A DNA stretch of 17,687 bases from a virus. Location of the stretch: the UHGV virus genome UHGV-0277874; one strand, written 5' to 3'. The notes beneath the pieces were generated by a model that was given only the letters and a program-made list of their open reading frames with translations, was not told the origin of the DNA and ran no database searches. Shown here piece by piece: positions 589 to 17,687 of this stretch. The position numbers were made by a program, and so were the translations under genes. The first letter of the stretch is position 1; the number at the start of each line of letters is the position of its first letter.

Positions 589-592
589 GGGA

Positions 593-1291: not shown

Positions 1292-1300
1292 CAGGGCCTC

Positions 1301-1630
1301 CTATGCCACGACCTGTTCAAAATCTGCCGTTATGGTTACCCACAGCGCCCCCACGCTTGCCGACCATTTACGACAAACCACCCTGATCGGCCTCCAGTCA
1401 TAAGGTGGCGTCCACTGAAATGCGCGGACGCCACCGTGCCGTTCCAGAAAGGCTTTTAAAGATGGGTGTTCACATTTACGAACACGTATCGTCACGCTGT
1501 AAGTCGACAACTGGTTATTCAGTCCCGCCGCACGACGCTGTTCATAACCATCGCCCAGCTTCACTGTCACCACTTTCGGCTCTGATACCACATTCATATC
1601 CGGGCGCACTTTCCAGTGAAACGTCTCCAT
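1301..1630 (-). CDS. M: Minor tail protein M (lambda gpM-like)
   Basis: 109-aa ORF METFHWKVRPDMNVVSEPKVVTVKLGDGYEQRRAAGLNNQLSTYSVT...WTPPYDWRPIRVVCRKWSASVGALWVTITADFEQVVA, same length and pattern as lambda gpM. Its ATG shares one base with the H stop (TGATG). Confidence 0.95.
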   Translation of the reverse strand: METFHWKVRPDMNVVSEPKVVTVKLGDGYEQRRAAGLNNQLSTYSVTIRVRKCEHPSLKAFLERHGGVRAFQWTPPYDWRPIRVVCRKWSASVGALWVTITADFEQVVA

Positions 1631-4600
1631 TACCGATATGCTCCACTAAACCGACCACCATCACGGGCCTGCTGTTGCATAAAGTCCGCTGCCGCTTTTT
1701 TCCCAAGGTCATAAACCACCTTCAGGGCAGCCGGACCTATCTGCCCGTTCGTGCCATCGTTATTGATCTCGATGTTGTACTGCGGGGCAAACATCGCCAT
1801 ACCTGAACCACCAATATCCGCCACAACCCCCAGCTTACCGTCAGCACCACGACGCAGTGGCAGAATGGCTTCAGGTCCAGCTTCCCCCATCACACCCGCG
1901 CCTTTTGCAAAAGCAAAAAACGTCGGACGGTTAACCACCGTGCCACTGTAGCGACTCAAATCAGCCGACTGATAAACACCGCCATCAGCATTAGCTACAA
2001 AATCAAAAGGCAGCGCGGAAGCAATGCCTTTTACCGCTTTCATTAAAGCTATCTGAGCCATGATTCTGGACATATCTGACAGCACAGAAGAGGTGAAGGA
2101 TTTGAAATTGAGTTTGCCTGTAGTACAGAATGTCGCCAGCCAGTCACTCATGCTACTGAACGCAGACGTGAACAACTGTTCCACTGTCCCGGCTGTGTTA
2201 TCCGCATTCTCAGTGACATTCTGGAGTGCACGCAGGACTCCGTTTTTCCAGTCCCCCTGAGCAATTTCAAGCTGTTGCCAGTAACGGCGATTCTCATTCA
2301 GTTGTCGGTTCAGGCTCTCCGTCAGCGCCTGCTCGGCCTTTCTGTAGTCATCCGTGTTATATGTCCCTTTCTGCTCACTATCCCGCCTCAACTGCTCCAG
2401 CTGTTGCTGGTATTTCTGGCGAAGACTCAGTTGTACCTGATATCGCTGCCGCTGCTGATCACCCATACCCACCGTGGCGATATCCAGGTCATGTTGCTGA
2501 CGCTGAGCACGCTCTTCTTCAGCCAGTTGACTGGTCAGCTGAATTGTTTTTTTCTTCAGCTCGTTGAGTGCCGTCTGTTTCTGAAGCTCCTGCTGTTTTA
2601 CATCCAGCAGCGTCAGTGCCTGAATCAGTTCATCTTTACGGGCCAGCACACTCTTTTCATCTGCCGTCAGTTTTTTCCCGTCCAGGTCGCTGATGCGCTG
2701 CTGCAGAGCCAGAAGCTGTTTATGCGCTTCTGTCATCTTTTCAGTGGCAATGCCTGCTGACTGTCTTGCAGCAGCAATCTGCCCTTCCACCTGTGCCTGT
2801 TGCTGACTGTACTGCAGCAATAACCGGGTGGCCTCATCATTACGGGTTTCGCGTGTTTTTTTCTTACCGGATGCCAGGGCTTTCTCGTAACGTTCATTTT
2901 CACGTTGTATCGCCGCATCCCTGACAGCCTGGTCGGCGTACTGCATGGCATTAATACGCGCAATTTCACGCTGATGTCGTGCTGCTTCCGTTTCATTCAT
3001 CCGGTTCAGTGCAGCATTTTCAGCATTACGTCGTTTCTGTTGCTCCTGATAATTCCGCTCTGCCTGCTCTTTTGCATCCTGCAAATCCTTCTGGCGTTTT
3101 TTCTCCTGAAGATCGTTCAGACGCTGCTGATCGTATTCAACCTGAGAAGATGATGCCGTCCAGGGGAGTCTTTTCGCCCGCGACACTTTCTCCTGTAAAG
3201 CGGCAATCTGTTCATCCAGCGAGTCTTCACGACCAATATTCATGGCCGCATCCCAGAAACGACTCCACAAATCAGACAGATACTTCAGCGTACTGCCAAG
3301 CGCATTGAGGTTATTATCAATATCCGCAGTACGCCGACCGGTTTCCTCTGCCAGTGCAGACATGGCTATCCGTGCAGCATCACTGGACCGTCCCTGATCC
3401 CCAAGGACACGTATCTGCTCAAGCTGAGTGGCAGTAAGAAAATGCAGCTCATTGTCCAGAGCCTTCGCGGCATTTACAGGATCATCCTTCAGCCGCTTAA
3501 ACTGATTTATGGTATCGCTGACCGACTGGCCAACCGATCGCTCCATCTGTGCGGCAGCTCTCGCCACCATACCGATATCGTTTCCACGAAATGCACCACT
3601 CCCCACCACCTGAGCCAGCGCACCGGCTGCAGCATGTTGCGTGATACCATTCCCGGAAATAGCACGACTAAGCGTCCACAGCTGCCCGGCAGTGACTCCG
3701 GCATAATGCCCCGTCAGCGACAACTGGCGGTTAAATTCTTCCCCCTCCTTCTGACCGTCATACCAGGCTTTACCCAGACCATAGACGGCCGCGGCAATAC
3801 CGCCAATAACCCCACCTGGCATCATGCCTTTCGGTGACATCAGTGTGTCTATCCATCCGGCACGGTTAGCCAGCGTTATCCCGGATCCCCTCAGCGCACC
3901 TAAATTGCCGCGAGCCAGTTCACCTATCAGAACGCCTATCTCCTGGCGGGCCGCTGCACTTTTCAGACCCAGCGAATGCGTGGCTTTTCCTGCCTGCTCC
4001 ATTTTGCGGATATACACTTCTGCAGCACTGCTTACCCCCAGCTGGGCAGCCTTAGCACGAAGCAACTCAGAAGAAGAAAGATTCTGGCGGGTTGCCTGCT
4101 CTTTAAGCTGACGGATAAACGCCACTTTCTGTCGGGTAGCCTCTTCCTCAGCCTGTGTAAGAACACGGGTTTTCGCCGTAACCTCAGAAATCAGCGCCAG
4201 ATAATCCTGCTGACCAATCCCGCCACTGTTTCTGGCCTGTCGGATCTGCTGCTGAATACGCTGTAATTCCTGCAGACCCGCACTGGCCTGTTTCACACTG
4301 TCAATCTGACGATAAAACGCAGCAGCCGCTTTATCCTGAGCCTCCGCCAGAGCCATGGCCTGCGCCTGTTCCTCGCGCATTTTCTGGCTCAGCGCCTCCA
4401 TGCGCTGGCGGGTTTTCTCCACCTCGCGGGCCATGCGTTCATGAGCCTGTGCGTTCTTCTCCACCGTCTGCGCATGGACGGATGCGGCTGTTGCAGCCGA
4501 AGACGCCGCCTGCGTTGTCTGCCGGGCGGCCTGAGTCTGACGCTCCATAAAACGCTGCATACGGGCAGAAGACCGTTCTGCATCGCTGGCTGCACCATTC

Positions 4601-4686
4601 AGAAGGTTTTTGATACGGGGGATTTCATTTTTAAACTCTGCCGCATCAATCCCCAAATCAATGACCAGGTTGGCTATCTGGTCCAT
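1630..4686 (-). CDS. H: Tail tape measure protein (lambda gpH-like), about 1018 aa from the ATG start
   Basis: Track ORF 1630..4716 starts at a TTG. The in-frame ATG at 4686 is preceded by GGAGG (8-nt spacer) and gives MDQIANLVIDLGIDAAEFKNE..., aligning with the lambda H N-terminus MAEPVGDLVVDLSLDAARF. C-terminus ...NNDGTNGQIGPAALKVVYDLGKKAAADFMQQQARDGGRFSGAYR matches the lambda H C-terminus. Long Q/A/E/R-rich coiled-coil interior; located between G-T and M. Confidence 0.9.
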   Translation of the reverse strand: MDQIANLVIDLGIDAAEFKNEIPRIKNLLNGAASDAERSSARMQRFMERQTQAARQTTQAASSAATAASVHAQTVEKNAQAHERMAREVEKTRQRMEALSQKMREEQAQAMALAEAQDKAAAAFYRQIDSVKQASAGLQELQRIQQQIRQARNSGGIGQQDYLALISEVTAKTRVLTQAEEEATRQKVAFIRQLKEQATRQNLSSSELLRAKAAQLGVSSAAEVYIRKMEQAGKATHSLGLKSAAARQEIGVLIGELARGNLGALRGSGITLANRAGWIDTLMSPKGMMPGGVIGGIAAAVYGLGKAWYDGQKEGEEFNRQLSLTGHYAGVTAGQLWTLSRAISGNGITQHAAAGALAQVVGSGAFRGNDIGMVARAAAQMERSVGQSVSDTINQFKRLKDDPVNAAKALDNELHFLTATQLEQIRVLGDQGRSSDAARIAMSALAEETGRRTADIDNNLNALGSTLKYLSDLWSRFWDAAMNIGREDSLDEQIAALQEKVSRAKRLPWTASSSQVEYDQQRLNDLQEKKRQKDLQDAKEQAERNYQEQQKRRNAENAALNRMNETEAARHQREIARINAMQYADQAVRDAAIQRENERYEKALASGKKKTRETRNDEATRLLLQYSQQQAQVEGQIAAARQSAGIATEKMTEAHKQLLALQQRISDLDGKKLTADEKSVLARKDELIQALTLLDVKQQELQKQTALNELKKKTIQLTSQLAEEERAQRQQHDLDIATVGMGDQQRQRYQVQLSLRQKYQQQLEQLRRDSEQKGTYNTDDYRKAEQALTESLNRQLNENRRYWQQLEIAQGDWKNGVLRALQNVTENADNTAGTVEQLFTSAFSSMSDWLATFCTTGKLNFKSFTSSVLSDMSRIMAQIALMKAVKGIASALPFDFVANADGGVYQSADLSRYSGTVVNRPTFFAFAKGAGVMGEAGPEAILPLRRGADGKLGVVADIGGSGMAMFAPQYNIEINNDGTNGQIGPAALKVVYDLGKKAAADFMQQQARDGGRFSGAYR

Positions 4687-5008
4687 AACGCACACCTCCG
4701 GAAATACCTTCCCCAAGATGCATCAGTTCTTCGTCCGTTCGCTCCGGTATCCCGTTCTCTTCCGGTAAAAGGCTGAAATCAGCCACCGCAGCATCACTGC
4801 TGCCGGACACCATTCTCACGATCAATGCCTTCAGCGAGGCAAACTGCGCATCCATCCACACATCACTGAAGCTCTGCATCCGGAAATAATCGCCCCACTC
4901 ACCAAGCTCAGTGGCCGACATTTCCGACAGCATCCGCCGCCAGTCTGCCCGCCGGAACTCCCGGGCAAGCCGCATGACAAACTGCATTTCCCGCGTCAGG
5001 ACTTTTCC
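4658..5008 (-). CDS. T: T segment of tail assembly chaperone G-T, reached only by a -1 ribosomal frameshift from G (not independently initiated)
   Basis: ORF 4658..4987 (…LAREFRRADWRRMLSEMSATELGEWGDYFRMQ…) resembles lambda gpT. It lies in the -1 frame relative to G, and that frame is open from 5020 through the G stop. Candidate slip site GGAAAAG at 5008-5002 (minus strand), one codon before the G stop. Confidence 0.7.
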   Translation of the reverse strand, partial: GKVLTREMQFVMRLAREFRRADWRRMLSEMSATELGEWGDYFRMQSFSDVWMDAQFASLKALIVRMVSGSSDAAVADFSLLPEENGIPERTDEELMHLGEGISGGVRYGPDSQPGH

Positions 5009-5382
5009 GGCGTCAGCGCCTCATGCTCATCATCCCCGGCATTATCAATGGCCCCCATACCGCTCAGCGACAGAACCATCTCCGCCCCCGCACCCAGGGC
5101 ATCATACGACCATGTTGTAATAACGGATGCGCAAAGCGTCTCTACATCCTTAGACTGATCCGCATTCCACAGTGAGCGGGAAACCAGCCAGGCATTGATA
5201 TCCATCCCCATCCGCAGAAAAGCAATCTGTCGTTCAGCCTCCGGCAGTTCTCCCTCACCGGCATCAAACTTTGCCGTTCGCTGCTGAACAAACGCCAGAT
5301 ATTCAATTCTCTGCAGCCCGGACAGCTCACTGAGCACCACGGACTGTTTTTCATAATTAAACGTGCCCTGTTTCAGAAACAT
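4996..5382 (-). CDS. G: Tail assembly chaperone G (lambda gpG-like)
   Basis: Track ORF 4996..5424. Internal start MFLKQGTFNYEKQSVVLSELSGLQRIEYLA aligns with lambda G MFLK...TLSELSALQRIEHLA; GGAG lies 6 nt upstream of this ATG (the ATG at 5385 is an alternative). Position between V and H, with the T frame overlapping its 3' end. Confidence 0.8.
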   Translation of the reverse strand: MFLKQGTFNYEKQSVVLSELSGLQRIEYLAFVQQRTAKFDAGEGELPEAERQIAFLRMGMDINAWLVSRSLWNADQSKDVETLCASVITTWSYDALGAGAEMVLSLSGMGAIDNAGDDEHEALTPEKS

Positions 5383-5442
5383 CATGTTCTCCACCTGCAA
5401 AAAAGCCCCGGATAACCGGGGCAAATGATGAGTATCGTCCTG

Positions 5443-6186
5443 TTAACCTGCGGCGCTGACAGTCACCGCAGCCACAGCCACAAAATTCCCGTCAGCGGTC
5501 ATGCCCACAATGCTGACACTGCCCTGCTTCACGCCTTTCACCGTGGCTACAAGCCCGTTCAGGGTCACCGTGGCAGTCTGTGGATCTGACGAATGCACAC
5601 TGATCGCTTTGTCACTGGCTCCGTCAGGTTTTACTGTAAAGGTCAGCGTGGTGGTTGCTCCCACTTTTACACTGGCAGATGCCGGTGCCACCGTCAGCCC
5701 GGTAACGCTCACTGTTTCAGTGCCTTCCTCTGCCAGATACGGACGCCCCACACCGCTGATTTTCACAGTGCGGGTCATCACGTCTTTTGAGGCAATGGTT
5801 TTACCCAGTGAACTCAGCCAGCCACGGAAAACATCAACAGTACCGTTGGGATATTTGATACGAAACGCGCAGACTTCACCGGAGTCGAACAACTGAACCA
5901 GTTTTTTCTGCCCGCTGTCACCCGGACGCCAGGCCAGCGTCGCCGAAGTATCACCGACTGATTTCTGCCCCTGGGTTGTCGTTTTCCAGTCTGCATCTTC
6001 ATCATCGAGATAAGTGTCATCTTCTGCATCAGCGGTCATTTCGCCAGGTTGCAGATCCTTCACCATCGCAAGACGCAGCCAGTCAGTGTCCGACAAAGGA
6101 TTCGCAAACGCATCGCCGTTGCCGGTATACATCCAGAACGTCGTCCCCGCACCTTTCGTCTTTGCCAGTGGATTTGGTGTGGTCAT
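5443..6186 (-). CDS. V: Major tail tube protein V (lambda gpV-like) with C-terminal Ig-like (Big_2) domain
   Basis: Start at ATG 6186 preceded by AAGGAGGTGGTA. MTTPNPLAKTKGAGTTFWMYTGNGDAFANPLSDTDWLRLAMVKDLQPGEMTA...YLDDEDADW...FRIKYPNGTVDVFRGW... closely matches lambda gpV. C-terminal segment ...VTGLTVAPASASVKVGATTTLTFTVKPDGASDK... is Ig-like as in lambda V. 247 aa versus 246 in lambda. Confidence 0.9.
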   Translation of the reverse strand: MTTPNPLAKTKGAGTTFWMYTGNGDAFANPLSDTDWLRLAMVKDLQPGEMTADAEDDTYLDDEDADWKTTTQGQKSVGDTSATLAWRPGDSGQKKLVQLFDSGEVCAFRIKYPNGTVDVFRGWLSSLGKTIASKDVMTRTVKISGVGRPYLAEEGTETVSVTGLTVAPASASVKVGATTTLTFTVKPDGASDKAISVHSSDPQTATVTLNGLVATVKGVKQGSVSIVGMTADGNFVAVAAVTVSAAG

Positions 6187-6196
6187 TACCACCTCC

Positions 6197-6598
6197 TTAA
6201 TTCGTGTACGTGATCTGGTACGTGATTTCCGCCATCGCCCAGGTGGCCATCTCATTATCACGTTGATAGTTAAAACCGAGTGGGATCAGGGTGTCGATGA
6301 GTCCGGAAAGTGCCGGTATATCATTCAGGGCAGGAAAAATGGTGCTCTCCATCCACATATCCAGCTCTGAATCCGGTGCCTGTGCCCGGATGAAGACGGC
6401 AATATGCAGAACAGCCTGCCAGTCATCTTCATCCGTCATTTTTCCGGTGTACTGAGCATCACTCAGCCACACCGCCACGGCGGGCAGTTCCTGCGCATCA
6501 ATAAATGCCGGAAGCCCGTCAAAAAACGTGGCGCTGTCTCCACACTGTTCCCGAAGGCGTGCCAGTACGACCTGGCGGATTTGTGTATGTCGGTTCAT
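6197..6598 (-). CDS. U: Tail terminator protein U (lambda gpU-like)
   Basis: From internal ATG (residue 5 of track ORF 6197..6610): MNRHTQIRQVVLARLREQCGDSATFFDGLPAFIDAQELPAVAVWLSDAQYTGKMTDEDDWQAVLHIAVFI...ITYQITYTN aligns with lambda gpU (MKHTELRAAVLDALEKHDTGATFFDGRPAVFDEADFPAVAVYLTGAEYTGE...). ATGA overlap with the Z-frame stop, as in lambda Z/U. Confidence 0.9.
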   Translation of the reverse strand: MNRHTQIRQVVLARLREQCGDSATFFDGLPAFIDAQELPAVAVWLSDAQYTGKMTDEDDWQAVLHIAVFIRAQAPDSELDMWMESTIFPALNDIPALSGLIDTLIPLGFNYQRDNEMATWAMAEITYQITYTN

Positions 6599-6738
6599 CG
6601 GGTCAGCCATAATCTCAGTTGTTGTTTCAGTGCATACCCCAGCTGTTTCGGCATTTCCGCAGCAATGATGCGGTCGCGGGCATCTTCAAATGCCTGTGTC
6701 AGCGGTCCGGACAGCGGGATTTTCACTACCGACGGGCT
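6595..6738 (-). pseudogene. Z: 3'-terminal remnant of a tail completion gene Z homologue (about 45 codons, no start, 5' part missing)
   Basis: Minus-strand frame translates ...SVVKIPLSGPLTQAFEDARDRIIAAEMPKQLGYALKQQLRLWLTR*, matching the lambda gpZ C-terminus (...VVKIPMAVPLTTAFKQNIERIRRERLPKELGYALQHQLRMVIKR). That frame is closed by an in-frame TAA at 6741-6739, and the upstream DNA is the capsid-fusion ORF in another frame. Confidence 0.7.
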
Positions 6739-8297
6739 TTATCCAGCGATGCCACGTCCATTGCAGCGCTCTCCAGTACGTTTGCATGTTTCGCTTTATC
6801 GAACAGACTTACATTATCTGTGGAGATTTTCGGGTTAGACGTCAGAATGGCATAAACCAGATCGGCAATAGTGGATTTCGCCGCACGGCCCAGTTTCATC
6901 GGGACATCGGTCAGCATATTCAGATCATCATTGATAATGGCCTGACGGGTGATACTGAACAGCTCGCCATAGGTCGCCAGTGCAATAGTGGCCTGTTTAT
7001 CTCCGGTGGTGACGTATTTATATTCCGCCCCTTCACGCACCTGACGCAGAGCACTGAAGCCCCCCATACCCACACGATGGGCAATTTTAAAATCAGACAA
7101 CTGACCTTTCCGCGTCCACTGTTCATAGGTTTCAGGGGCATCTTCCCAGCCCTGCAGAATGGCTTTGTTTGCAACATCCAGCAGAATATTACCGAAGTCA
7201 GACGTACTGTGTGTGAACGCCGCACCGACCATCTGCATCGGGTTATAACTGGAAACCCCAATACCCCGTTCAGTCAGTGACATACGGGCATATTCACGCA
7301 GGGTCATCCCGTTGTAGACATTATCACGTTCGGTTTTTTCAAATCCGGCACGCGCCATCAGCGCCTGGCGGATCCCGTCCCCCACAAAATTACCGTTACC
7401 GGCATAAATATGAGCCGGGGTATTTTTATTGGATGGCGTGGACTCGCGCCCCATCTCGTTCAACAGCTTTTCGCGGGCCTGCTCCAGCGAACATTCAGGA
7501 TCGGCAAGACACTGAGCCTGCAGCGTCTGATAACGCCCGCCAAACATGGCAAACAGATCATTAATACCGTTTACACGCGCTTTTTGCTCTGCCAGTACCT
7601 GCGCACGGATACTGTTTTCATCCACCACGGGTGCTGCTGCCTGCACTGGCGTCCGGGAGGCTGCAGGTTCATCATCCTGTACGCGTGGAGCACTGTTGCG
7701 TGGCGGAGTAATCATGTTTCGAATGGATTCCGGCATCTTTTTAAATTCCTCTGTACGTTTTGACTGAATACATGCCATTGCCTTAACGGCTGGCGTCACC
7801 TGATCAGCAAATCCATGTGCCAGACATTCGGCACCGGACATCCAGGTCTCATCCGCCAGCATGGCAGCAATTTCATCGGTGGTTTTCCCGGTTTTCTGTG
7901 CATAAGCGGGTAACAGAACCGCCTCAACCTTATCGAGCAGGTCGGCATAGGTGCGCATGTCCTCCGCATCACCGCCCGTAAAGCCAAATGGTTTATGAAT
8001 CATCATGAAGGTGTTTTCCGGCATAATGACCGGGTTTCCCACCATCGCAATGACCGACGCCATTGACGCCGCCACACCGTCGACATAAACGGTAATGGAT
8101 GCACCATGTGTTTTCAGCGCATTAAAAATGGCGATGCCTTCAAAGACATCGCCACCCGGTGAATTGATATGGAGATTAATGTGGGTGATATCGCCCAGTG
8201 CATTCAGATCACTGATAAACTGCTTCGCTGTAACACCCCAGAAACCAATCTCGTCATAAATATAAATATCCGCGTCACTCTGGTGACCAGCCTGCAT
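6726..8297 (-). CDS. ClpP-family prohead protease fused to scaffold-like and major-capsid-like sequence (Gifsy-2-type multi-part head gene); probably 3'-truncated
   Basis: Track ORF 6726..8558 begins at a TTG inside the portal gene. The first ATG after the portal stop (8297) gives MQAGHQSDADIYIYDEIGFWGVTAKQFISDL...INSPGGDVFEGIAIFNALK...MASVIAMVG..., a ClpP/S14-like protease domain. This is followed by a helical linker and a segment (…TYGELFSITRQAIINDDLNMLTDVPMKLGRAAKSTIADL…) that I judge to be HK97-fold capsid-like. The ORF stops (TAG 6728-6726) exactly at the junction with the Z remnant. Confidence 0.65.
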   Translation of the reverse strand: MQAGHQSDADIYIYDEIGFWGVTAKQFISDLNALGDITHINLHINSPGGDVFEGIAIFNALKTHGASITVYVDGVAASMASVIAMVGNPVIMPENTFMMIHKPFGFTGGDAEDMRTYADLLDKVEAVLLPAYAQKTGKTTDEIAAMLADETWMSGAECLAHGFADQVTPAVKAMACIQSKRTEEFKKMPESIRNMITPPRNSAPRVQDDEPAASRTPVQAAAPVVDENSIRAQVLAEQKARVNGINDLFAMFGGRYQTLQAQCLADPECSLEQAREKLLNEMGRESTPSNKNTPAHIYAGNGNFVGDGIRQALMARAGFEKTERDNVYNGMTLREYARMSLTERGIGVSSYNPMQMVGAAFTHSTSDFGNILLDVANKAILQGWEDAPETYEQWTRKGQLSDFKIAHRVGMGGFSALRQVREGAEYKYVTTGDKQATIALATYGELFSITRQAIINDDLNMLTDVPMKLGRAAKSTIADLVYAILTSNPKISTDNVSLFDKAKHANVLESAAMDVASLDKARR

Positions 8298-8310
8298 CCT
8301 GAACCAGGAA

Positions 8311-9819
8311 TTATTCTTCGGACTGGTCGTCGGTGTGCTGCGGCTCCTGTCGTTTCGTTGCGGCACTGCTGCCTCCTTTATCACTGGCCGGATCGGTATC
8401 AAATACCAGATCCAGCTTGCGGTTTTCATCAATTTCGGCCTTGCGCCGACGTTTGACATCATCCGGATTACGACCACCAGCACGTACCCAGTCTGATTCT
8501 GTCGCCGCTCCACCACGAATCTGGATTTTCCAGGCCTCAGCCTCCTTAACAGGGTCAATCCACGGCATCACTGGTCCGGAATACACCGCGGTATACAGTG
8601 AAGAACGGTCAAGATCACGGGGTAGCCTGATAACACCGGATGCCACAGCCTGTTTCAGCCAGGCACGATACATCGGGCGGGTGACGGCACCAATAAACCA
8701 GTCCTGCAGGATCAGGTAGCCATCAGTAGACTCAACCAGTTCCTGACGCTGGGCGCTGTAAGTGCCGTTATAGTTGCGTGCCGTACTGGAAAAACTCAGA
8801 CGACTGCCCGCCGCCACGGCACGCAACTGACCATTACGAAAAGTTTCAAGGTTAGGATTGGGACGATCCGACTTCACCATTCCGATTTCTTCGCCGGGTT
8901 TCAGATCGTCGTAAATAATGCCTGGCTGAATGGTAAGCTCGCGTTCCTTATCCTTGCTGCCATTACCATCCGGTTCATAGCTCTGCCCGTCGCCTTTCCG
9001 GATGTACATCCCCAGAGCAGCGGCGATCCTTGCTGCAGTCAGCTCAGAATCTTCATACTCTTTCAGGGCACTGAGGCGGATCAGCACACCGGACAACAAA
9101 GACGTCCCGCGCATCTGGTGCAGACGGCGAACAAATTTAAGATGCAGCATTCGCTCTGCATCCACTTCTTTGGTTTCCATCTGCCGTCCGGATACAGGAC
9201 GACTTTTATACACCAGATATTTTTCGGGACGCCCCCAGTCATCAACAAACACGCCCTGATTCAGCCTGTTGCTCTCATCACTGGTCATGGGAATAAAGTC
9301 TGGCTCGAGCGCCTCCAGCCAGAAATGAACACCGGCAGAAGGCGTCAGGCTGTTTATGCGCCCGGAAACCATCTGGGCAAACACCTCACCATCGCGCAGC
9401 CAGGTACGCAGCATCAGACGTTCCAGCATCGGACGGGTAAACTGCCCGGTGACTTCCGGGCTGACAGACCATTCACTCCATCGGGTGCGTATCTCCGCTG
9501 CCAGATCACGGGCAATGGCCCCATTGCGTAATACCGGATGTGGCTCGACAATAATCCCGTTTTTCCCCACCACCCGTTCTTCCAGCTTGTCAAATACACC
9601 AATAACCAGATCGTGGTTGTTATCAAGGTAACGGGCCTGCTCACGTAACGACACGGCCCCGTACTGGCTTAACTGGTCGGCAGTTCGGTTTTCCCGCCGG
9701 GCTTTGTGTGTCCGCGTCGTTTTTACGGCCTCATAAGCCTGGATCACCGCACGGGAACGCAGCCTTGCCGCTTTCCATCCTGGTGAAAAAACGCCAATCA
9801 CATCATCAAGAATTGCCAT
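8311..9819 (-). CDS. Portal protein
   Basis: Track ORF 8311..9891 starts at a GTG. The in-frame ATG at 9819 (MAILDDVIGVFSPGWKAARLRSRAVIQAYEAVK...) overlaps the gpW stop as TGATG. About 502 aa; sits between gpW and the prohead protease as in lambda (W-B-C); acidic C-terminus ...QHTDDQSEE. Confidence 0.8.
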   Translation of the reverse strand: MAILDDVIGVFSPGWKAARLRSRAVIQAYEAVKTTRTHKARRENRTADQLSQYGAVSLREQARYLDNNHDLVIGVFDKLEERVVGKNGIIVEPHPVLRNGAIARDLAAEIRTRWSEWSVSPEVTGQFTRPMLERLMLRTWLRDGEVFAQMVSGRINSLTPSAGVHFWLEALEPDFIPMTSDESNRLNQGVFVDDWGRPEKYLVYKSRPVSGRQMETKEVDAERMLHLKFVRRLHQMRGTSLLSGVLIRLSALKEYEDSELTAARIAAALGMYIRKGDGQSYEPDGNGSKDKERELTIQPGIIYDDLKPGEEIGMVKSDRPNPNLETFRNGQLRAVAAGSRLSFSSTARNYNGTYSAQRQELVESTDGYLILQDWFIGAVTRPMYRAWLKQAVASGVIRLPRDLDRSSLYTAVYSGPVMPWIDPVKEAEAWKIQIRGGAATESDWVRAGGRNPDDVKRRRKAEIDENRKLDLVFDTDPASDKGGSSAATKRQEPQHTDDQSEE

Positions 9820-10037
9820 CAGAACCTCGCCAGCCGGTACCCGGGATGCCCCCGTCGTCGTGTAATCAGAGCCGCAAGGCGGCGCTCCCACTCCTGCCGT
9901 CCCTGCCGGATCTCAGATAAGTTTTCCATGGTCATCTGCTGACCATTAAAGGTGACGGATTTTCCGTCCAGCACCGCCATTTCAGCTTCCGTATAACGCT
10001 GAATCATGGCTTCGATATCATTCTGGTTCATAACCAT
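9819..10037 (-). CDS. W: Head-tail joining / DNA stabilisation protein (lambda gpW-like)
   Basis: About 70 aa; C-terminal ...RRLAALITRRRGHPGYRLARF resembles lambda gpW ...QTGMTQRRRGPAGFYV. Lies between terminase large subunit and portal, exactly as W in lambda. Start is ATG 10037 or ATG 10031 (the latter overlaps the terminase stop as ATGA). Confidence 0.7.
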   Translation of the reverse strand: MVMNQNDIEAMIQRYTEAEMAVLDGKSVTFNGQQMTMENLSEIRQGRQEWERRLAALITRRRGHPGYRLARF

Positions 10038-12127
10038 CCTCCGGAAGTCAGCCAGGGGTTAACATCGTCAGTTACTGTTTTCTTCCGTTTTTGTTTTTTA
10101 ACAGGCGTGGATACCGGTTCCGGTGAGGGTGACGGTTCGGTACTGTCCGGGACACACTCCAGCCAGGTTTCCCGGCTCGCCCATTCCGGTGCATCCGGCC
10201 AGCGGATCTTTTCGTATCCATGCAGAATGACCAGAGCCTCGGCATACACCATCAGGTCAAAGGCTTCGTTGGCACCGCGACCCGGCTTACTCCATTTCCC
10301 GTCACTGCTCCGCTCTTCATACGTCAGTTCGTCGTAAAACCAGCTCCCCAGCCAGTCAGGGAAATGCACATAGCCGGGACCTGGCGAGTCACGCCATAAC
10401 GCGTTATTCACCCGGTCTTTCAGTGCATCCGTCTGAAGAAGCCAGAGCGGCACATCACCTGCGGCCTGCGCCCGTCGGCCCGTTCGTCCGGTGTTATCAG
10501 GGAATGTACGGGTGATCAGTTTTGCGCGCCGGATGCTGTCGCCCTTAAACAGGTAAATACGTTTACCAAGGCCATCACGACGGCAACGACGCCAGAATTT
10601 ATAGGCATTATCAGTGACCCCGTCTTCACCGCCGGAGTCCACCGCCATTGCCATCAGTCGCATTTGTTGAGAAGGATCGGAGGCCAGCGGCCAGCTTTTA
10701 TGAAAAACATCCGTCAGCAGGACATCCCAGTCTTCCGGATAGCTGGCCGGATCAATTCGCTGGCTCTCCCCGTCGCAGTCACTGCGCAATGACTGCATGA
10801 TATTGTAACGATCAATAATCCAGCGTTCGCCACGACTGCCATAGCCCGTTACCTGAACCACAAAACGGCGATGACGTCCCGCCTGCACATCCACTGTCGC
10901 CACAAGGAAATTAACGCCATCCGGCACACTGCGGGAAGGAACTGGCTCTGCCCGCTGCTCAAGCAGTTCACTTTTTCGTTGCTCCATGCTGGCACGAGGA
11001 AGATAAGGCAATCCCCAGTCGGTGTTGATAACCGCCCTGAGTGTTTCTTCGCTTCCTGTCGCTTCATACTCCTGTTCTGCAGTCAGTAATTTGTAAACCA
11101 GTTGCGCCCAGGTCTGATACGCAGCAGCTGGCCCTTCCATCCAGAAACTGGCGATACGGGAGCGGCGCGGTTCACCGGAAACGTTGCCGTTACGATCAAT
11201 GACCTGACCTTCACGCAACCAGACTCCTGCACTATTGAGCTCACGCTTTTTCTCCGCAGTGATAATGCCGCTGCAGTGCGGGCAAAGTAGATACGCCGCC
11301 TCACTGGCTTTAAAGGGATCCGGTTCATTACGGTAGCCGGTCATGGCATCCATAGCTGGCTGAAAATATTCACCGCAGTGCGGACATGGCCAGTACCAGC
11401 GGCGGCGGTCACCACGATTGTAAAGGGAAAGAATACCAGTCGTCGGTGGCGCTTCATGAGGCGACTTACGTCGCCATTTGCTATCGCAGATGTCACGTCC
11501 CGGCGAGCTCTCCACCAGAGTCATCCCGGCGGACATAAATGTGGTGGTACGTTTTGAGGCCAGGGAGAAACCATCACCCTCGCTGTCGATATTCTCCGGA
11601 AAACGGTCGTAATCGGTTAAGGCGACAAACCGGTAATCCGACGACGACATAATGTTGACCGAGGGCCAACCAATTTTAAGGAACGAGCCATCCCTGAACG
11701 TCTTATAATGGACATTATTGTCGTTACGACGTGGACTCATTCTTTTCTTTACCGCAGCACTGCTTCTGAACGTTCTGTCGAGGCGCTTTTTAGAATGCTC
11801 GCGGGCCTTATCTTCGGTCATCTGCACAACGAGCATGTCCGAAGGATCGCAAACGATGGTATAGACAATCCATCCATCGATCAGACCAATGGTCTTCCCT
11901 GTTCGCGCAGGACCAACAAAAATCACCGCATCGTATTCACGCGATGCCAGGCAGTTCATGGGCTCAATGATGTAGGGTGTCAGTTCAGGATCCCATGGCA
12001 CCGAGTTACCAGCCCCCTTGGGAACACGCATGAATTTTTTAACAGCCTCCGAAATCGGCATGCGACGTGGTGGGGAAAATCCTGCCGATATGTCCCTTCC
12101 CAAATTTCGGGCTGATGAAAAACCCAT
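10028..12127 (-). CDS. Terminase large subunit (GpA-type ATPase/nuclease)
   Basis: 699-aa ORF with ATG 12127 preceded by AGGAGG. Walker A-like motif VGPARTGKT near the N-terminus; size and position immediately downstream of the small subunit; diverged from lambda gpA in sequence. Confidence 0.9.
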   Translation of the reverse strand: MGFSSARNLGRDISAGFSPPRRMPISEAVKKFMRVPKGAGNSVPWDPELTPYIIEPMNCLASREYDAVIFVGPARTGKTIGLIDGWIVYTIVCDPSDMLVVQMTEDKAREHSKKRLDRTFRSSAAVKKRMSPRRNDNNVHYKTFRDGSFLKIGWPSVNIMSSSDYRFVALTDYDRFPENIDSEGDGFSLASKRTTTFMSAGMTLVESSPGRDICDSKWRRKSPHEAPPTTGILSLYNRGDRRRWYWPCPHCGEYFQPAMDAMTGYRNEPDPFKASEAAYLLCPHCSGIITAEKKRELNSAGVWLREGQVIDRNGNVSGEPRRSRIASFWMEGPAAAYQTWAQLVYKLLTAEQEYEATGSEETLRAVINTDWGLPYLPRASMEQRKSELLEQRAEPVPSRSVPDGVNFLVATVDVQAGRHRRFVVQVTGYGSRGERWIIDRYNIMQSLRSDCDGESQRIDPASYPEDWDVLLTDVFHKSWPLASDPSQQMRLMAMAVDSGGEDGVTDNAYKFWRRCRRDGLGKRIYLFKGDSIRRAKLITRTFPDNTGRTGRRAQAAGDVPLWLLQTDALKDRVNNALWRDSPGPGYVHFPDWLGSWFYDELTYEERSSDGKWSKPGRGANEAFDLMVYAEALVILHGYEKIRWPDAPEWASRETWLECVPDSTEPSPSPEPVSTPVKKQKRKKTVTDDVNPWLTSGGWL

Positions 12128-12135
12128 TATTCCTC

Positions 12136-12663
12136 CTAGAGACTCTCTCCTTCCTCATCAGGAATTAATTCAGCAGCACAAGCCTCGTAGGATTTTTCCT
12201 GAAGAGTGTATCGCAGGTCATCAATGGCCTGTTGTACAACGCCGACGGCCTGAGGAGTCAGGGCGCAATCGCGTTCAAGAACATCCGGAATTGTCTCCAG
12301 AACCTGGACGACAGCCTTTCTCATGGACGAATAGACGATGACTACTTCATCAACTGGGATGAGTTTTCGCTGCTCCTTTTCCAGCTTGATCCTTTCATTT
12401 TCAGACTGGTACCAGTCCTTTCTCTCTTTCGGCTCCATACGGGATGGATCATGAACAGAGTCTGCTGCCTCATGCTTCACACTAAACAGGGCGGGCCCGA
12501 CATGCTGCAGGGCGTAAACGGGGTTCCCCCTGACAGTCGCAGCCACAGGAGTGTTGGCCGCGAGGAGCCGTTTTTTTACTGTGTCCCGGTGAAGCCCAAA
12601 GGCCTCGGCGATTTTAAAAACACTCCAGTAATAAGCATCACCGATCCCGCTCACATTTGACAT
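12136..12663 (-). CDS. Terminase small subunit (Nu1-like, N-terminal winged HTH)
   Basis: Track ORF 12136..12675. The ATG at 12663 has GGAG 6 nt upstream. MSNVSGIGDAYYWSVFKIAEAFGLHRDTVKKRLLAANTPVAATVRGNPVYAL (HTH) followed by ...ERKDWYQSENERIKLEKEQRKL, comparable to lambda Nu1 ...IKWYAERDAEIENEKLRREVEEL. Lies immediately upstream of the large subunit, about 185 bp from the candidate cosN. Confidence 0.85.
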   Translation of the reverse strand: MSNVSGIGDAYYWSVFKIAEAFGLHRDTVKKRLLAANTPVAATVRGNPVYALQHVGPALFSVKHEAADSVHDPSRMEPKERKDWYQSENERIKLEKEQRKLIPVDEVVIVYSSMRKAVVQVLETIPDVLERDCALTPQAVGVVQQAIDDLRYTLQEKSYEACAAELIPDEEGESL

Positions 12664-12835
12664 AAGCAACTCCATCTGGCAGGTGAAAATCAGGTTTATT
12701 TATATATTTCAATTAATTGCAAACTGGTCTAATGACAGGAAGAAAAAAATATTGTACAGGTAAAAAGAGAAATAACTTTTAATTATCAATAAATTACCAA
12801 ACATGCTGCCGCCGCCATGGAAATGCAAAAACTAG

Positions 12836-13442: not shown

Positions 13443-13742
13443 TTTGTCGCTCCATGCGTTTGCTCGTCATCTAGCGGTTAAAATATTACTTCAAATCTTA
13501 CTGCATAAAAGAGGAAAAGTATGAAAGTTTGAGTACATCGACCTTACATACATCTGTCGGTTGCATATCCCTCCTGGATGCCAGCAAGGCTCAATTTTGT
13601 TACGCAATCAACACTATTCATTAAAAACAGGCTTAATATTTGACATAAATCATCAACAAAACACAAAGAGGTCAGACCAGATTGAAACAATAAACACGAT
13701 AATGCAAACTACGCGCCATCGTATCACATGGAAGGTTTACCA

Positions 13743-14174
13743 ATGGCTCAGGCTGCCATTTTTAAAGAAATATTCGATCAAGTACGTAAAGATTTAAACT
13801 GTGAATTATTTTATTCTGAGCTAAAACGTCACAATATCTCACTTTATATTTACTATTTAGCCACAGATAATATTCACATTGTGTTAGAAAACGACAACAT
13901 AGTGTTAGTAAAAGGACTCAAAAAGGTTGTAAATGTTAAATTCTCCAGAAACAAACATCTTATAGAGACCTCCTATAATAAGTTGAAATCAAAAGAAATC
14001 ACATTTCAACAATACAGGGAAAATCTTGCTAAAGCAGGAGTTTTCCGATGGGTTACAAATATCCAGGAACACCAAAGATATTACTATGCCTTTGATAACT
14101 CATTACTATTTACTGAAAGCATCCAGAAAATTACTGAAAGCATCCAGAAAACTACACAGATCTTACCACGCTAA
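13743..14174 (+). CDS. ydfO: YdfO/YbcV-family protein (DUF-type, prophage cargo gene)
   Basis: Track ORF 13728..14174. The ATG at 13743 has GGAAGG about 10 nt upstream. [52 protein letters not shown]...[37 protein letters not shown]... matches my recollection of K-12 Qin YdfO; gene order ydfO-gnsB-cspI as in Qin. Confidence 0.8.
14110..14151 (+). repeat. Perfect 21-bp tandem duplication (ttactgaaagcatccagaaaa x2) inside the 3' end of the ydfO-like gene
   Basis: Read directly; in frame, giving [14 protein letters not shown] in the protein. Confidence 0.9.
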
Positions 14175-15172: not shown

Positions 15173-15385
15173 TCAAAGCGCCACTACATGAACAGCGGCA
15201 GGACCTTTAGGTCCGTTCTCAATACCAAATTCAACTTCCTGATTCTCAGTTAATGTTTTGAAATCGTTGCTCTGAATTGCTGAGAAATGGACAAACACAT
15301 CTTTGCTGCCATCTTTCGGCGTGATGAAACCAAAACCTTTTTCAGGGTTAAACCATTTCACTAAACCAGTCATTTTGTTAGACAT
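15173..15385 (-). CDS. cspI: Cold-shock protein, CspA family (CspI-like)
   Basis: 70-aa [73 protein letters not shown] with RNP1-like KGFGFI and RNP2-like VFVHF motifs; matches my recollection of the Qin prophage CspI. About 360 bp of AT-rich upstream sequence is consistent with the long 5' leader typical of csp genes. Confidence 0.95.
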
Positions 15386-15746: not shown

Positions 15747-16770
<1,024 letters not shown>

Positions 16771-16774
<4 letters not shown>

Positions 16775-17082
16775 AGATATTTATGATGAGGACGCTCGTG
16801 CTTATTGGCAGGATTTTCAATCTTAAAGGAGTACTGATGCTGCAGATAAGACTCAACTTTTTCTGACAATTTTTCTGCTACTTCCAGGAAGACTTGCCGG
16901 ACGCTCCTTCTGGCTGCTGCCTCATAAAACTCCAGCGCAGCTCCTTCAACACGGTCCATGGCGACATCCAGGTCAAAAATTTCACCGTCAAAGCGTTCTT
17001 TGTCCTGTAAGGCTACAGTTACCGCAACTTTATTCTCAAAATTACGGACTCCTTTCACAACCAGTTCATAGTCTTGAGTCAT
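16771..17082 (-). CDS. ydfR: YdfR-like small protein of unknown function, located inside the lysis cassette
   Basis: 103-aa ORF MTQDYELVVKGVRNFENKVAVTVALQDKERFDGEIFDLDVAMDRVEGAALEFYEAAARRSVRQVFLEVAEK...; AGGAG upstream of the ATG; stop overlaps the endolysin ATG (ATGA). Position between holin and endolysin matches K-12 Qin essQ-ydfR-rrrQ as recalled. Confidence 0.7.
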
Positions 17083-17086
17083 TGGA

Positions 17087-17302
17087 TTACTCTCCTCTCG
17101 CAGCCTTACGCCTGTCTTCTTTAATCTTGAAATAAAGATTTGTCAGATACGTCAGCAGGCCAAAAACCAGGCTACCCAGCACACCGATTGCAGCCCACTG
17201 TGACGGAGTTACTTTATCGAGTAACTGCAATGCCCAGAAACCAGCATTACCAGCCGATGTGCCATAGGCGATACCTGTTGTTAACTTATCCATTGATTTC
17301 AT
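17087..17302 (-). CDS. S: Class II holin / pinholin (phage 21 S21-like) with dual-start motif
   Basis: 71-aa [74 protein letters not shown], near-identical in pattern to S21 ([23 protein letters not shown]...[13 protein letters not shown]...[20 protein letters not shown]). Two transmembrane segments. Met1-Lys-Ser-Met4 gives the antiholin (71 aa) / holin (68 aa) dual start. Confidence 0.9.
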
Positions 17303-17520: not shown

Positions 17521-17687
17521 ATGTCAGAACGTAAAGACTCAAAATCACGCCGTAATTATCTCGTTAAATGTTCCTGCCCAAACTGCACCCAAGAGTCAGA
17601 ACACAGTTTTTCAAGAGTACAAAAAGGTGCCCTTTTGATCTGCCCTCATTGCAACAAAGTATTCCAGACAAATCTTAAAGCTGTAGC
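17521..17687 (+). CDS. Hypothetical small zinc-ribbon-like protein (two CxxC pairs), 5' part only; continues beyond the window
   Basis: ATG 17521 with AGGA upstream; MSERKDSKSRRNYLVKCSCPNCTQESEHSFSRVQKGALLICPHCNKVFQTNLKAV... with CPNC...CPHC spacing typical of a zinc ribbon; divergent from the lysis cassette. No stop inside the window. Confidence 0.5.
   Translation, partial: MSERKDSKSRRNYLVKCSCPNCTQESEHSFSRVQKGALLICPHCNKVFQTNLKAV

What the first reader, a model, noticed from the sequence alone, without database searches (positions are those of the whole stretch)
16771..17082. Extra gene (YdfR-like) inserted between holin and endolysin and translationally coupled to the endolysin
In lambda and phage 21 the holin is directly followed by the endolysin. 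Here a 103-aa acidic protein of unknown function sits between them, and its stop overlaps the endolysin ATG (ATGA), so endolysin translation may depend on it. Its role in lysis, if any, is undescribed as far as I know.
Basis: partly seen in the sequence, partly recalled or inferred. Interest (0 to 1): 0.45.

Follow-up and report, generated by a model that had tools for sequence, protein, structure and literature searches.

The report
ydfR gene inside prophage lysis cassette
The extra gene between holin and endolysin is real, but it is ydfR, a long-annotated E. coli prophage gene of still unknown function; it is the normal middle gene of this very common type of lysis cassette, and its overlap with the endolysin start is peculiar to this variant.

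Summary
A 103-aa acidic ORF (17082..16771, minus strand) lies 4 nt after an S21-type holin. Its TGA overlaps the ATG of a SAR-type lysozyme (ATGA, 16771-16774).

It is not new. The protein is 102/103 identical to E. coli K-12 YdfR (b1555, Qin prophage; Pfam DUF1327), and the cassette matches essQ-ydfR-rrrQ-rzpQ at 1552/1556 nt. ydfR-like DNA occurs in 3647 of 5426 complete E. coli genomes. All 7 loci sampled for this check, and every other Escherichia locus with this lysozyme that I examined, had a DUF1327 gene between holin and lysozyme.

Across variants the constant feature is the holin-to-ydfR junction (3-4 nt, Shine-Dalgarno (SD) site inside the holin). The ydfR-to-endolysin distance runs from -4 to +452 nt across a hypervariable island. 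The endolysin has no SD site in any variant, so reinitiation is plausible here but not generally required.

Only a 72-76-aa core is conserved. Distant stand-alone homologues sit in tail-gene slots, often with a convergent small gene.

No fold, defence-family or solved-structure match was found. The only biochemical lead is a 2026 report that YdfR residues 1-72 bind the catalytic half of RNase E.

Best reading: a cytoplasmic accessory late protein, not part of the lysis machinery. Interest is low to moderate.

The parts
17087..17302 (-). Class II (phage 21 S-type) holin, 71 aa, with the dual-start motif M1-K-S-M4.
   Evidence: ORF. PF04971 E=5e-34 and PHROG 'holin'. The 5' end reads ATGAAATCAATG.
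17090..17099 (-). Shine-Dalgarno (SD) site for ydfR (GAGAGGAGAG), inside the last codons of the holin. It is followed by TAA, a 4-nt spacer and the ydfR ATG.
   Evidence: Sequence. Anti-SD duplex -9.5 kcal/mol, the strongest in the cassette. The 3-4 nt spacing and the GGAG are conserved in all Escherichia loci with ydfR directly after the holin.
16855..17082 (-). ydfR codons 1-76: the conserved DUF1327 core. Predicted as three beta-strands (residues 5-14, 18-27, 34-43) followed by a long helix (50-85).
   Evidence: Pfam. Alignments. AlphaFold2 model with mean pLDDT 75.6. dN/dS 0.17-0.37. Stand-alone 72-76-aa homologues exist.
16771..16854 (-). ydfR codons 77-103 plus the stop: a non-conserved tail, disordered from residue 87. 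The last ~4 codons are read from the endolysin leader.
   Evidence: pLDDT below 50 for residues 87-103. C-termini differ among variants. Alignment with the 174- and 243-aa forms breaks at codon ~99 and resumes ~10 nt before the endolysin ATG.
16771..16774 (-). ATGA overlap of the ydfR stop (TGA) and the endolysin start (ATG).
   Evidence: Present in 77 near-identical Qin-type loci and absent from the other forms.
16241..16774 (-). rrrQ-type lysozyme, 177 aa. It has an N-terminal hydrophobic SAR-like segment, an E-x8-D-x5-T motif, and no SD site.
   Evidence: PF00959 and PHROG 'endolysin'. Sequence. Anti-SD duplex +1.2 kcal/mol. The SAR and catalytic-motif readings are from the sequence and general knowledge of R21-type enzymes.
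15747..16244 (-). Rz-type i-spanin (DUF2514). GTG start overlapping the endolysin stop.
15797..16051 (-). Embedded Rz1-type o-spanin lipoprotein (rzoQ equivalent).
   Evidence: ORF. Coordinates transferred from the K-12 rzoQ annotation; the cassette is 1552/1556 nt identical.

Best explanation
The ORF is ydfR, the middle gene of the holin / YdfR / 177-aa SAR-lysozyme class of lambdoid lysis cassettes in Escherichia.

**Shown here.**
- It encodes a small, soluble, acidic protein. Only the first 72-76 residues (a beta-meander plus a long helix) are conserved and under purifying selection.
- It starts 4 nt after the holin stop and uses the strongest SD site of the cassette, which lies inside the holin.
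- In this Qin-type form the tail abuts the endolysin leader. Relative to longer forms, about 580-765 nt are missing. This creates the ATGA overlap.

**Inferred.**
- Ribosomes that terminate on ydfR probably reinitiate on the SD-less endolysin start and raise its translation in this variant.
- The protein itself is most likely not a part of the lysis machinery. It looks like an accessory protein of the late operon that acts in the cytoplasm on a host factor.
- The only reported partner is the catalytic N-terminal half of RNase E, together with co-purifying RNA. On that basis the protein would modulate RNA decay late in infection.
For: **Identity.**
- Pfam DUF1327, 177 bits.
- 102/103 aa identical to K-12 YdfR, and the cassette is 1552/1556 nt identical.

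**Ubiquity.**
- ydfR-like DNA occurs in 3647 of 5426 complete E. coli genomes.
- All 7 sampled rrrQ-type loci, and every phage locus examined that has that lysozyme, carry holin then YdfR.

**Junctions.**
- Holin to ydfR is 3-4 nt wherever ydfR directly follows the holin. ydfR to endolysin ranges from -4 to +452 nt.
- SD energies: ydfR -9.5, endolysin +1.2 kcal/mol.
- No promoter or terminator is predicted inside the cassette.
- The deletion breakpoints are seen.

**Not a core lysis part.**
- DLP12 essD-rrrD lacks it.
- There is no hydrophobic segment (GRAVY -0.59) and the predicted fold is a soluble alpha/beta one.
- Distant 72-76-aa homologues sit between tail genes M and L, or after I, not near holins.
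- One phage joins holin plus DUF1327 to an unrelated M15-peptidase cassette.
- The core evolves 3-4 times faster than the holin or endolysin by dN/dS.

**RNase E lead (PMC13232886).**
- YdfR residues 1-72 were recovered three times in a two-hybrid screen.
- Full-length YdfR gave a signal with Rne 1-597.
- Rne 1-598 co-eluted with Strep-YdfR.
- DNase-resistant nucleic acid co-purified.
Against: - The RNase E link rests on one study that used overproduction. YdfR overexpression changed few transcripts. Nothing shows an effect during phage growth.
- In Escherichia the gene is always inside the holin-endolysin interval. That also fits a lysis-related role.
- No fold, family or defence match supports any activity.
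- Reinitiation on the endolysin is untested. The same SD-less leader works without overlap in relatives. The junction RNA has no significant structure that would enforce coupling (z = -0.96).
Confidence: 0.45

Rival explanations
1. YdfR is a cytoplasmic regulator of lysis timing for pinholin/SAR-endolysin cassettes. For example, the acidic core might bind the basic cytoplasmic C-terminal tail of the S21-type holin (a soluble antiholin, as T4 RIII is for holin T), or might act on the endolysin before its export.
For: - In Escherichia every DUF1327 gene examined lies between an S21-type holin and the next lysis gene. All but the L105-L107 form start 3-4 nt after the holin, across holin identities of 75-100% and core identities of 45-100%.
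- The core is acidic (charge -5.5), while the holin ends in the basic tail [13 protein letters not shown].
- A soluble cytoplasmic antiholin has a precedent: T4 RIII is mentioned in the abstract of PMC8385771.
Against: - S21-type holins work with a directly following endolysin in DLP12/phage 21-type cassettes (phage 21 function is from general knowledge).
- The holin already carries its own dual-start antiholin motif.
- Distant homologues sit in tail modules with no holin nearby.
- In L105-L107 a 213-aa gene separates the holin from the DUF1327 gene.
- All PHROG families hit are 'unknown function', none 'lysis'.
- Close linkage can be explained by common descent of one recombination block.
Confidence: 0.2
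2. The DUF1327 core is one half of a mobile two-gene accessory module, paired with a convergent antisense gene of 79-105 aa. Such a module could be involved in phage-host or phage-phage conflict (defence, counter-defence or toxin-antitoxin-like). The Qin-type ydfR would be an orphan that lost its partner in the deletion.
For: - A convergent small ORF follows the DUF1327 gene in tail-slot loci L094-L097 and L100, and in many holin-endolysin islands.
- The 95-aa antisense protein of E. coli locus L105 is homologous to those next to DUF1327 in tail slots L096 and L097 (phmmer 1e-14 to 1e-18). So the pair has moved as a unit.
- The holin-endolysin island is hypervariable, 311-1316 nt.
- The core is either fused to a 147-aa domain or encoded next to it, in the opposite order.
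- One tail-slot island also carries HicB-like and ORF6N genes.
Against: - The antisense ORFs fall into at least six families with no detectable mutual similarity. Their expression is unknown.
- PADLOC gave no significant hit for the core or the partners.
- The very common Qin, mEp460 and H-19B forms have no partner, yet keep the core under purifying selection.
Confidence: 0.2
3. The protein has no function of its own in this prophage. The reading frame is kept only as a translated leader that delivers ribosomes from the strong holin-embedded SD site to the SD-less endolysin start.
For: - The endolysin lacks an SD site and its start overlaps the ydfR stop.
- The tail is not conserved and is disordered.
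- Frameshifted and truncated ydfR variants are common in databases.
Against: - The core is under purifying selection (dN/dS 0.17-0.37).
- It is conserved down to about 30% identity in stand-alone homologues.
- In most variants the ORF ends 50-452 nt before the endolysin, so it cannot serve as a coupling leader there.
Confidence: 0.1

Closest known systems
E. coli K-12 YdfR (b1555, P76160), Qin prophage essQ-ydfR-rrrQ-rzpQ
   Same: 102/103 aa identical. The 4-nt holin spacer, the ATGA overlap with rrrQ and the downstream rzpQ/rzoQ/cspI are all the same, and the cassette is 1552/1556 nt identical.
   Different: One substitution (T20A). The window's prophage keeps terminase, portal, head and tail genes that K-12 Qin has lost.
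Phage 21 / DLP12 pinholin-SAR endolysin cassette (essD-rrrD-rzpD)
   Same: Same holin family, and the same SD site embedded in the holin 3' end that serves the next gene. The order holin, endolysin, spanins is the same.
   Different: There is no middle gene: rrrD starts at the holin stop (TAATG). The endolysin is the 165-aa type and has an SD site (-7.1 kcal/mol). The 177-aa type here has none.
Longer YdfR-family proteins of Stx and other lambdoid phages (e.g. Stx2 phage 86 gp05, 268 aa; H-19B; mEp460 gp55; 2H10 gp52)
   Same: Same DUF1327 core, starting 3-4 nt after an S21-type holin and upstream of the same lysozyme type.
   Different: The core is only 45-86% identical. C-terminal extensions or extra domains are present. 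There is a 50-452-nt gap, often with an antisense gene, before the endolysin, and no ATGA overlap.
Proteins that bind the catalytic half of RNase E (RapZ, per PMC13232886; T4 Srd, from my own knowledge)
   Same: YdfR residues 1-72 are reported to bind the N-terminal half of RNase E and to co-purify with RNA. T4 Srd would be a precedent for a small phage protein acting on that domain.
   Different: No sequence or fold similarity was found to any characterised protein. No effect on RNase E activity has been shown, and overexpression changed few transcripts.
Lambda-type morons (bor, lom) and T4 RIII cytoplasmic antiholin
   Same: Like morons, it is present or absent among related phages and sits in accessory slots of late operons. 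Like RIII, it is a small soluble phage protein.
   Different: It has no promoter or terminator of its own, unlike classical morons. Holin binding is unknown and no homology to RIII was tested.

Membership tests
DUF1327 / YdfR family (Pfam PF07041) | Score above the Pfam gathering threshold, over the full profile. | tested here: met
   177.2 bits against a cut-off of 25. Residues 1-93 match profile positions 1-93 of 93.
DUF1327 / YdfR family (Pfam PF07041) | Orthology to K-12 YdfR, with the same gene neighbours. | tested here: met
   102/103 aa identical, with the same essQ/rrrQ/rzpQ/cspI order.
Holin or membrane antiholin | At least one transmembrane or SAR segment. | tested here: not met
   GRAVY -0.59 and no hydrophobic stretch. 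The model is a soluble beta-meander plus helix. No holin Pfam or PHROG hit.
Soluble cytoplasmic antiholin (T4 RIII type) | Binds the cytoplasmic domain of its holin and delays triggering. | not testable with these tools
   Only circumstantial evidence: adjacency to the holin and opposite charge.
Translationally coupled gene pair (ydfR to endolysin) | Stop and start overlap, and a downstream gene with no SD site of its own. | tested here: met
   ATGA overlap. Anti-SD duplex +1.2 kcal/mol, against a window background median of -2.9.
Translationally coupled gene pair (ydfR to endolysin) | The arrangement is conserved among diverged relatives. | tested here: not met
   The overlap is found only in the near-identical Qin-type loci. 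Other forms have gaps of 50-452 nt.
Translationally coupled gene pair (ydfR to endolysin) | Downstream expression falls when upstream translation is stopped. | not testable with these tools
   This needs a nonsense mutant and a measurement of the endolysin.
Classical moron | Own promoter and terminator flanking the gene. | tested here: not met
   There is a 4-nt gap to the holin and an overlap with the endolysin. No promoter-like or terminator-like site lies inside the cassette.
Classical moron | Present or absent between otherwise related phages, with a deviating base composition. | tested here: inconclusive
   It is absent from the DLP12 type. GC is 0.439, against 0.458 for the holin, 0.506 for the endolysin and 0.500 for the window. 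That is only a small difference.
Known anti-phage defence proteins (PADLOC) | Match to a defence-system model. | tested here: not met
   No hit for YdfR, the long variants or a distant homologue. One marginal hit (E=8e-4) was seen for one antisense partner.
RNase E N-terminal-domain binding proteins | Direct binding to Rne 1-598 and an effect on its activity. | not tested
   Binding of K-12 YdfR is reported in PMC13232886 by two-hybrid assay and co-purification. No activity effect was shown, and nothing was tested here.

The most novel reading that the evidence does not exclude
The DUF1327 core, together with a convergent small antisense gene, is a mobile two-gene accessory module of lambdoid late operons. 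It is found in the holin-endolysin island in Escherichia and in tail-gene slots elsewhere. It would take part in an undescribed phage-host conflict, with the core targeting the catalytic half of RNase E. The Qin-type ydfR in this window would be an orphan core that a deletion has also made the translational feeder of the endolysin.
Probability: 0.15. Interest if true: 0.65.

Novelty: already known. Interest (0 to 1): 0.3.

Why it matters
ydfR sits inside what appears to be the most common lambdoid lysis cassette of E. coli. The rrrQ-type lysozyme occurs at 10,883 places in 4373 of 5426 complete genomes, including Stx prophages. Yet ydfR has no assigned function.

If YdfR modulates RNase E or lysis timing, it would affect phage and Shiga-toxin release. 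It would also add a host-takeover function to the well-studied lambda late operon.

In practice, the overlap with a SAR endolysin means that ydfR knock-outs can be polar. An example is the Keio mutant that scored as envelope-defective. Such phenotypes should be read with care.

As a sequence finding, however, it is an already annotated gene in its usual place.

Tried and rejected
**Fold and family searches that gave nothing.**
- Foldseek against PDB: E >= 0.08.
- Foldseek against BFVD: E >= 0.005 with low TM-scores.
- The AlphaFold database library was not available.
- NCBIfam, PADLOC, a PDB profile search and Pfam on the long variants and antisense partners found nothing beyond DUF1327.

**Ideas tested and dropped.**
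- A hairpin at the ydfR/endolysin junction that would enforce coupling: the fold is not significant (z = -0.96).
- A promoter inside the holin, or a terminator after ydfR: none predicted.
- The 80-aa ORF between the tape-measure gene and gpM in L094 as a second DUF1327 copy: hhalign probability 5%.
- Programmed +1 frameshifting from holin into ydfR. ydfR is in the +1 frame, an SD-like GGAG precedes the holin stop, and database entries carry both PF04971 and PF07041. I rejected this by inspection: GAG-TAA is not a slippery site, so the fused entries are more simply indel variants or sequencing errors.

**Searches that failed.**
- Two single-protein scans of viral contigs found nothing.

**Other checks.**
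- The Paradis-Bleau 2014 main text does not mention ydfR. It appears only in the supplementary hit lists.

Full report
**1. The observation**

On the minus strand the window carries a compact lysis cassette:
- a 71-aa holin at 17302..17087 (PF04971 'phage P21 holin S', E=5e-34), with the dual-start motif MKSM;
- a 103-aa ORF at 17082..16771;
- a 177-aa lysozyme at 16774..16241 (PF00959);
- an Rz-type spanin at 16244..15747 with an embedded Rz1;
- a cspI-like cold-shock gene.

The holin TAA is followed by 4 nt and then the ATG of the 103-aa ORF. The TGA of that ORF overlaps the lysozyme ATG as ATGA (window 16771-16774).

The protein is acidic. Its pI is 5.56 with net charge -4. Residues 1-76 have pI 4.67.

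**2. Identity**

The ORF matches Pfam DUF1327 over the whole model, at 177 bits against a cut-off of 25. It is 102/103 identical to E. coli K-12 YdfR (b1555). The 1556-nt stretch from holin to Rz differs from the Qin prophage essQ-ydfR-rrrQ-rzpQ at only 4 positions.

The rest of the window encodes terminase, a lambda-family portal, a ClpP-capsid fusion, a tail tube, a tail chaperone and a tape measure. So it is a Qin-like lambdoid prophage that is more complete than the K-12 remnant.

RefSeq annotates the gene as 'YdfR family protein' in thousands of genomes.
- The whole cassette is covered at 80% or more in 2089 of 5426 complete E. coli genomes.
- ydfR-like DNA is present in 3647 genomes.

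The gene and its position are therefore already known. Its function is not: it was still listed as uncharacterised in 2024 (PMC11551758).

**3. What is conserved and what is not**

Homologues are few and taxonomically narrow.
- A search of 5.8 billion clustered proteins returned 250 hits, and every source name listed was from Escherichia or Shigella.
- An exhaustive profile search of 1.84 billion representative proteins returned 112.
- A one-genome-per-species scan found it only in E. coli, E. ruysiae, E. albertii and Shigella. It also appeared in two metagenome bins labelled Veillonella and Bacillota; the Veillonella copy is 98% identical to the E. coli protein and the Bacillota copy 85%.

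Alignments show that only residues 1 to about 76 are conserved. After that the C-termini differ in sequence and length, from 103 to 333 aa.

The AlphaFold2 model (mean pLDDT 75.6) has three beta-strands (5-14, 18-27, 34-43) and one long helix (50-85). The tail from residue 87 is disordered.

The core is under purifying selection but evolves faster than its neighbours:
- YdfR core: dN/dS 0.17-0.37;
- holin: 0.06-0.14, apart from 0.31 in one almost identical pair;
- lysozyme: 0.03-0.13.

One closely related pair gave a dN/dS of 1.1 for the core, based on few changes.

**4. Junctions across about 100 loci**

In every Escherichia locus with ydfR directly after the holin, the ydfR ATG lies 4 nt after the holin stop (3 nt in one locus). 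A GGAG sits in the last holin codons. This holds across holin identities of 75-100% and core identities of 45-100%.

The distance from the ydfR stop to the lysozyme ATG varies:
- -4 nt only in the 103-aa Qin-type form (77 near-identical loci);
- +50 to +452 nt in the 104-, 114-, 169-, 174-, 183-, 206-, 243- and 268-aa forms.

The second group includes the isolated phages mEp460, Perceval and 2H10, and Stx phages such as H-19B and Stx2 phage 86.

The window aligns colinearly with the 174- and 243-aa forms at 89-90% identity, from the holin up to ydfR codon ~99. There is then a single gap of about 580 or 765 nt, and the alignment resumes about 10 nt before the lysozyme ATG. The simplest reading is a deletion that fused the ydfR tail to the lysozyme leader and so created the ATGA overlap. 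An insertion in the longer forms cannot be formally excluded.

**5. Translation signals**

Pairing with the 16S rRNA 3' end gives these energies:

| Start site | Anti-SD duplex (kcal/mol) |
|---|---|
| ydfR | -9.5 |
| Rz | -8.4 |
| holin (two starts) | -6.3 / -7.5 |
| lysozyme (this window) | +1.2 |
| lysozyme leader in non-overlapping variants | +0.6, +1.6 |
| DLP12 rrrD (directly after the holin) | -7.1 |

The last ~12 nt of the lysozyme leader are conserved in the non-overlapping variants.

The 177-aa lysozyme therefore never has an SD site. In the Qin-type form, ribosomes leaving the well-translated ydfR stop on its ATG, so reinitiation is a reasonable inference. The same leader must nevertheless support initiation without overlap in related, viable phages.

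The junction RNA has no significant structure (z = -0.96). No promoter-like or terminator-like site lies inside the cassette.

**6. Architecture class**

All 7 rrrQ-type lysozyme loci sampled across 78-100% holin identity or 83-92% lysozyme identity had holin, then 4 nt, then a YdfR-family gene, then the lysozyme. These include O157:H7 prophages.

Holins followed directly by an endolysin have the 165-aa rrrD type.

For scale, the rrrQ-type lysozyme occurs at 10,883 places in 4373 genomes. S21-type holins occur at 15,326 places.

ydfR is thus the regular middle gene of one of two common cassette classes, not an oddity of this window. One phage (phiSTEC1575-Stx2k) joins holin plus DUF1327 to an unrelated cassette of two holins and an M15 peptidase.

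**7. The holin-endolysin interval is a hypervariable island**

Distinct islands measure 311 to 1316 nt. Longer ones carry C-terminal extensions of YdfR. They also usually carry a convergent antisense ORF of 79-105 aa, and these fall into at least six families that show no mutual sequence similarity.

In loci L105-L107 the order is: holin, a 213-aa protein, a stand-alone 75-aa DUF1327 with its own SD site, an antisense 95-aa ORF, then the lysozyme. The C-terminal 147 residues of the 213-aa protein are 83% identical to the C-terminal half of Stx2 phage 86 gp05. In gp05 that domain is fused behind the DUF1327 core.

**8. Distant homologues are not in lysis cassettes**

Stand-alone 72-76-aa members are 25-40% identical to YdfR. 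The relationship is supported in the reverse direction by tblastn.

These members lie in lambda-like tail modules. Some sit between the gpM and gpL homologues and others after gpI. In one case they share an inserted island with HicB-like and ORF6N genes.

Most are again followed by a convergent small ORF. The antisense proteins of tail-slot loci L096 and L097 are homologous to the one in the E. coli island of L105 (phmmer 1e-14 to 1e-18). So the pair of DUF1327 core and antisense gene has moved as a unit between a tail slot and the holin-endolysin island.

**9. Function: what the evidence allows**

No similarity to any characterised fold or family was found.

The literature offers the following.
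- **RNase E binding (PMC13232886).**
  - YdfR residues 1-72 were recovered three times in a bacterial two-hybrid screen.
  - Full-length YdfR interacted with Rne 1-597.
  - FLAG-tagged Rne 1-598 co-eluted with Strep-YdfR.
  - DNase-resistant nucleic acid co-purified.
  - Overexpression changed few transcripts.
- **Envelope screen (supplement of PMC3879167).** The Keio ydfR mutant is in the hit lists of a CPRG envelope-integrity screen.
- **Antibiotic screen (PMC12924614).** ydfR is listed as a candidate survival gene with a 3-fold higher streptomycin MIC.

The CPRG hit may be a polar effect, with the kan promoter driving the overlapping SAR endolysin. This is my inference and is untested.

I weigh the evidence as follows.
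- The protein is soluble and cytoplasmic.
- It is dispensable in the sister cassette class.
- It evolves faster than its neighbours.
- Its core occurs in non-lysis slots.

The best reading is therefore an accessory late-operon protein that acts on a host cytoplasmic factor, with RNase E and RNA as the only experimentally supported candidates (confidence 0.45 for the whole statement). In this variant ydfR translation probably also feeds ribosomes to the endolysin.

The rivals are:
- a cytoplasmic lysis-timing regulator (0.2);
- an orphan half of a two-gene conflict module (0.2);
- a functionless translated leader (0.1).

**10. Verdict**

The gene is the already known and widely annotated ydfR, in its usual place. 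The 'coupling to the endolysin' is a variant-specific consequence of a deletion, not a design feature of the family.

The following were not mentioned in the papers I searched or read (the library held only one paper mentioning DUF1327, and it has no subscription-journal coverage), so I cannot claim they are new:
- the constant holin-to-ydfR junction;
- the SD-less endolysin;
- the hypervariable island;
- the mobile pair of DUF1327 core and antisense gene.

These are modest leads rather than a new kind of system.

Noticed in passing
L094 3001-3486; L095 446-992; L096 1636-2160; L097 93-616; L100 449-1001; L105 3670-4189: Stand-alone 72-76-aa DUF1327 genes are repeatedly followed by a convergent antisense ORF of 79-105 aa. 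This is seen both in tail-gene slots and in the holin-endolysin island of E. coli prophages. The antisense proteins of L096, L097 and L105 are homologous (phmmer 1e-14 to 1e-18), so the pair moves as a unit. At least six unrelated partner families exist.
   Followed up: partly
L105-L107 3001-3897 versus L002 3001-3807: A 147-aa domain of unknown function is fused behind the DUF1327 core in Stx2 phage 86 gp05. In other E. coli prophages it is encoded as the C-terminal part of a separate 213-aa protein placed in front of a stand-alone DUF1327 gene. The domain order is swapped at 83% identity, which hints at a functional link.
   Followed up: partly
window 16775-16795 (endolysin leader); the same region in L001-L104: The 177-aa rrrQ-type lysozyme has no Shine-Dalgarno site in any variant (anti-SD duplex +0.6 to +1.6 kcal/mol). 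It has a conserved A/U-rich leader ending ATAAATATCY. The 165-aa rrrD type uses a normal SD site inside the holin.
   Followed up: partly
L103 (phiSTEC1575-Stx2k) 2281-4299: An S21-type holin plus DUF1327 gene is followed by antisense ORFs and then by a second, unrelated lysis cassette (two holin-family genes and an M15 metallopeptidase). This phage therefore carries holin genes of two kinds.
   Followed up: no
L085 (contig labelled as a Veillonella parvula MAG) and L087 (contig labelled as a Bacillota MAG): These contigs, assigned to Firmicutes metagenome bins, carry YdfR-family genes; the L085 protein is 98% and the L087 protein 85% identical to the window's YdfR. This is almost certainly mis-binned Escherichia prophage DNA.
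   Followed up: no
window 16771-17082; Keio ydfR mutant (supplement of PMC3879167): The ydfR deletion mutant appears in the hit lists of a CPRG envelope-integrity screen. ydfR overlaps the start of a SAR endolysin, so read-through from the kan cassette into rrrQ could explain this without any YdfR function. This is my inference.
   Followed up: no
database proteins P0033, P0057, P0084, P0092, P0103, P0108, P0236: These predicted proteins carry both the holin domain (PF04971) and DUF1327. ydfR is in the +1 frame, 4 nt after the holin stop. They are probably single-base indels or sequencing errors rather than programmed frameshifting.
   Followed up: partly
window 17521-17685 (+), 15173-15385 (-), 13728-14174 (+): A ynfU-like zinc-ribbon gene (PF23499) diverges from the holin. 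A cspI-like cold-shock gene follows Rz, and a ydfO-like DUF1398 gene follows that, as in K-12 Qin. Unlike K-12, the prophage continues into terminase, portal, head and tail genes (window 1-12675).
   Followed up: partly
E. coli genome hits H1, H11-H15; L004: Several genomes have IS elements (IS1, IS3, IS4-like) inserted in the endolysin or Rz of this cassette. Locus L004 has a 1625-nt holin-endolysin interval. These are signs of prophage decay at this locus.
   Followed up: no
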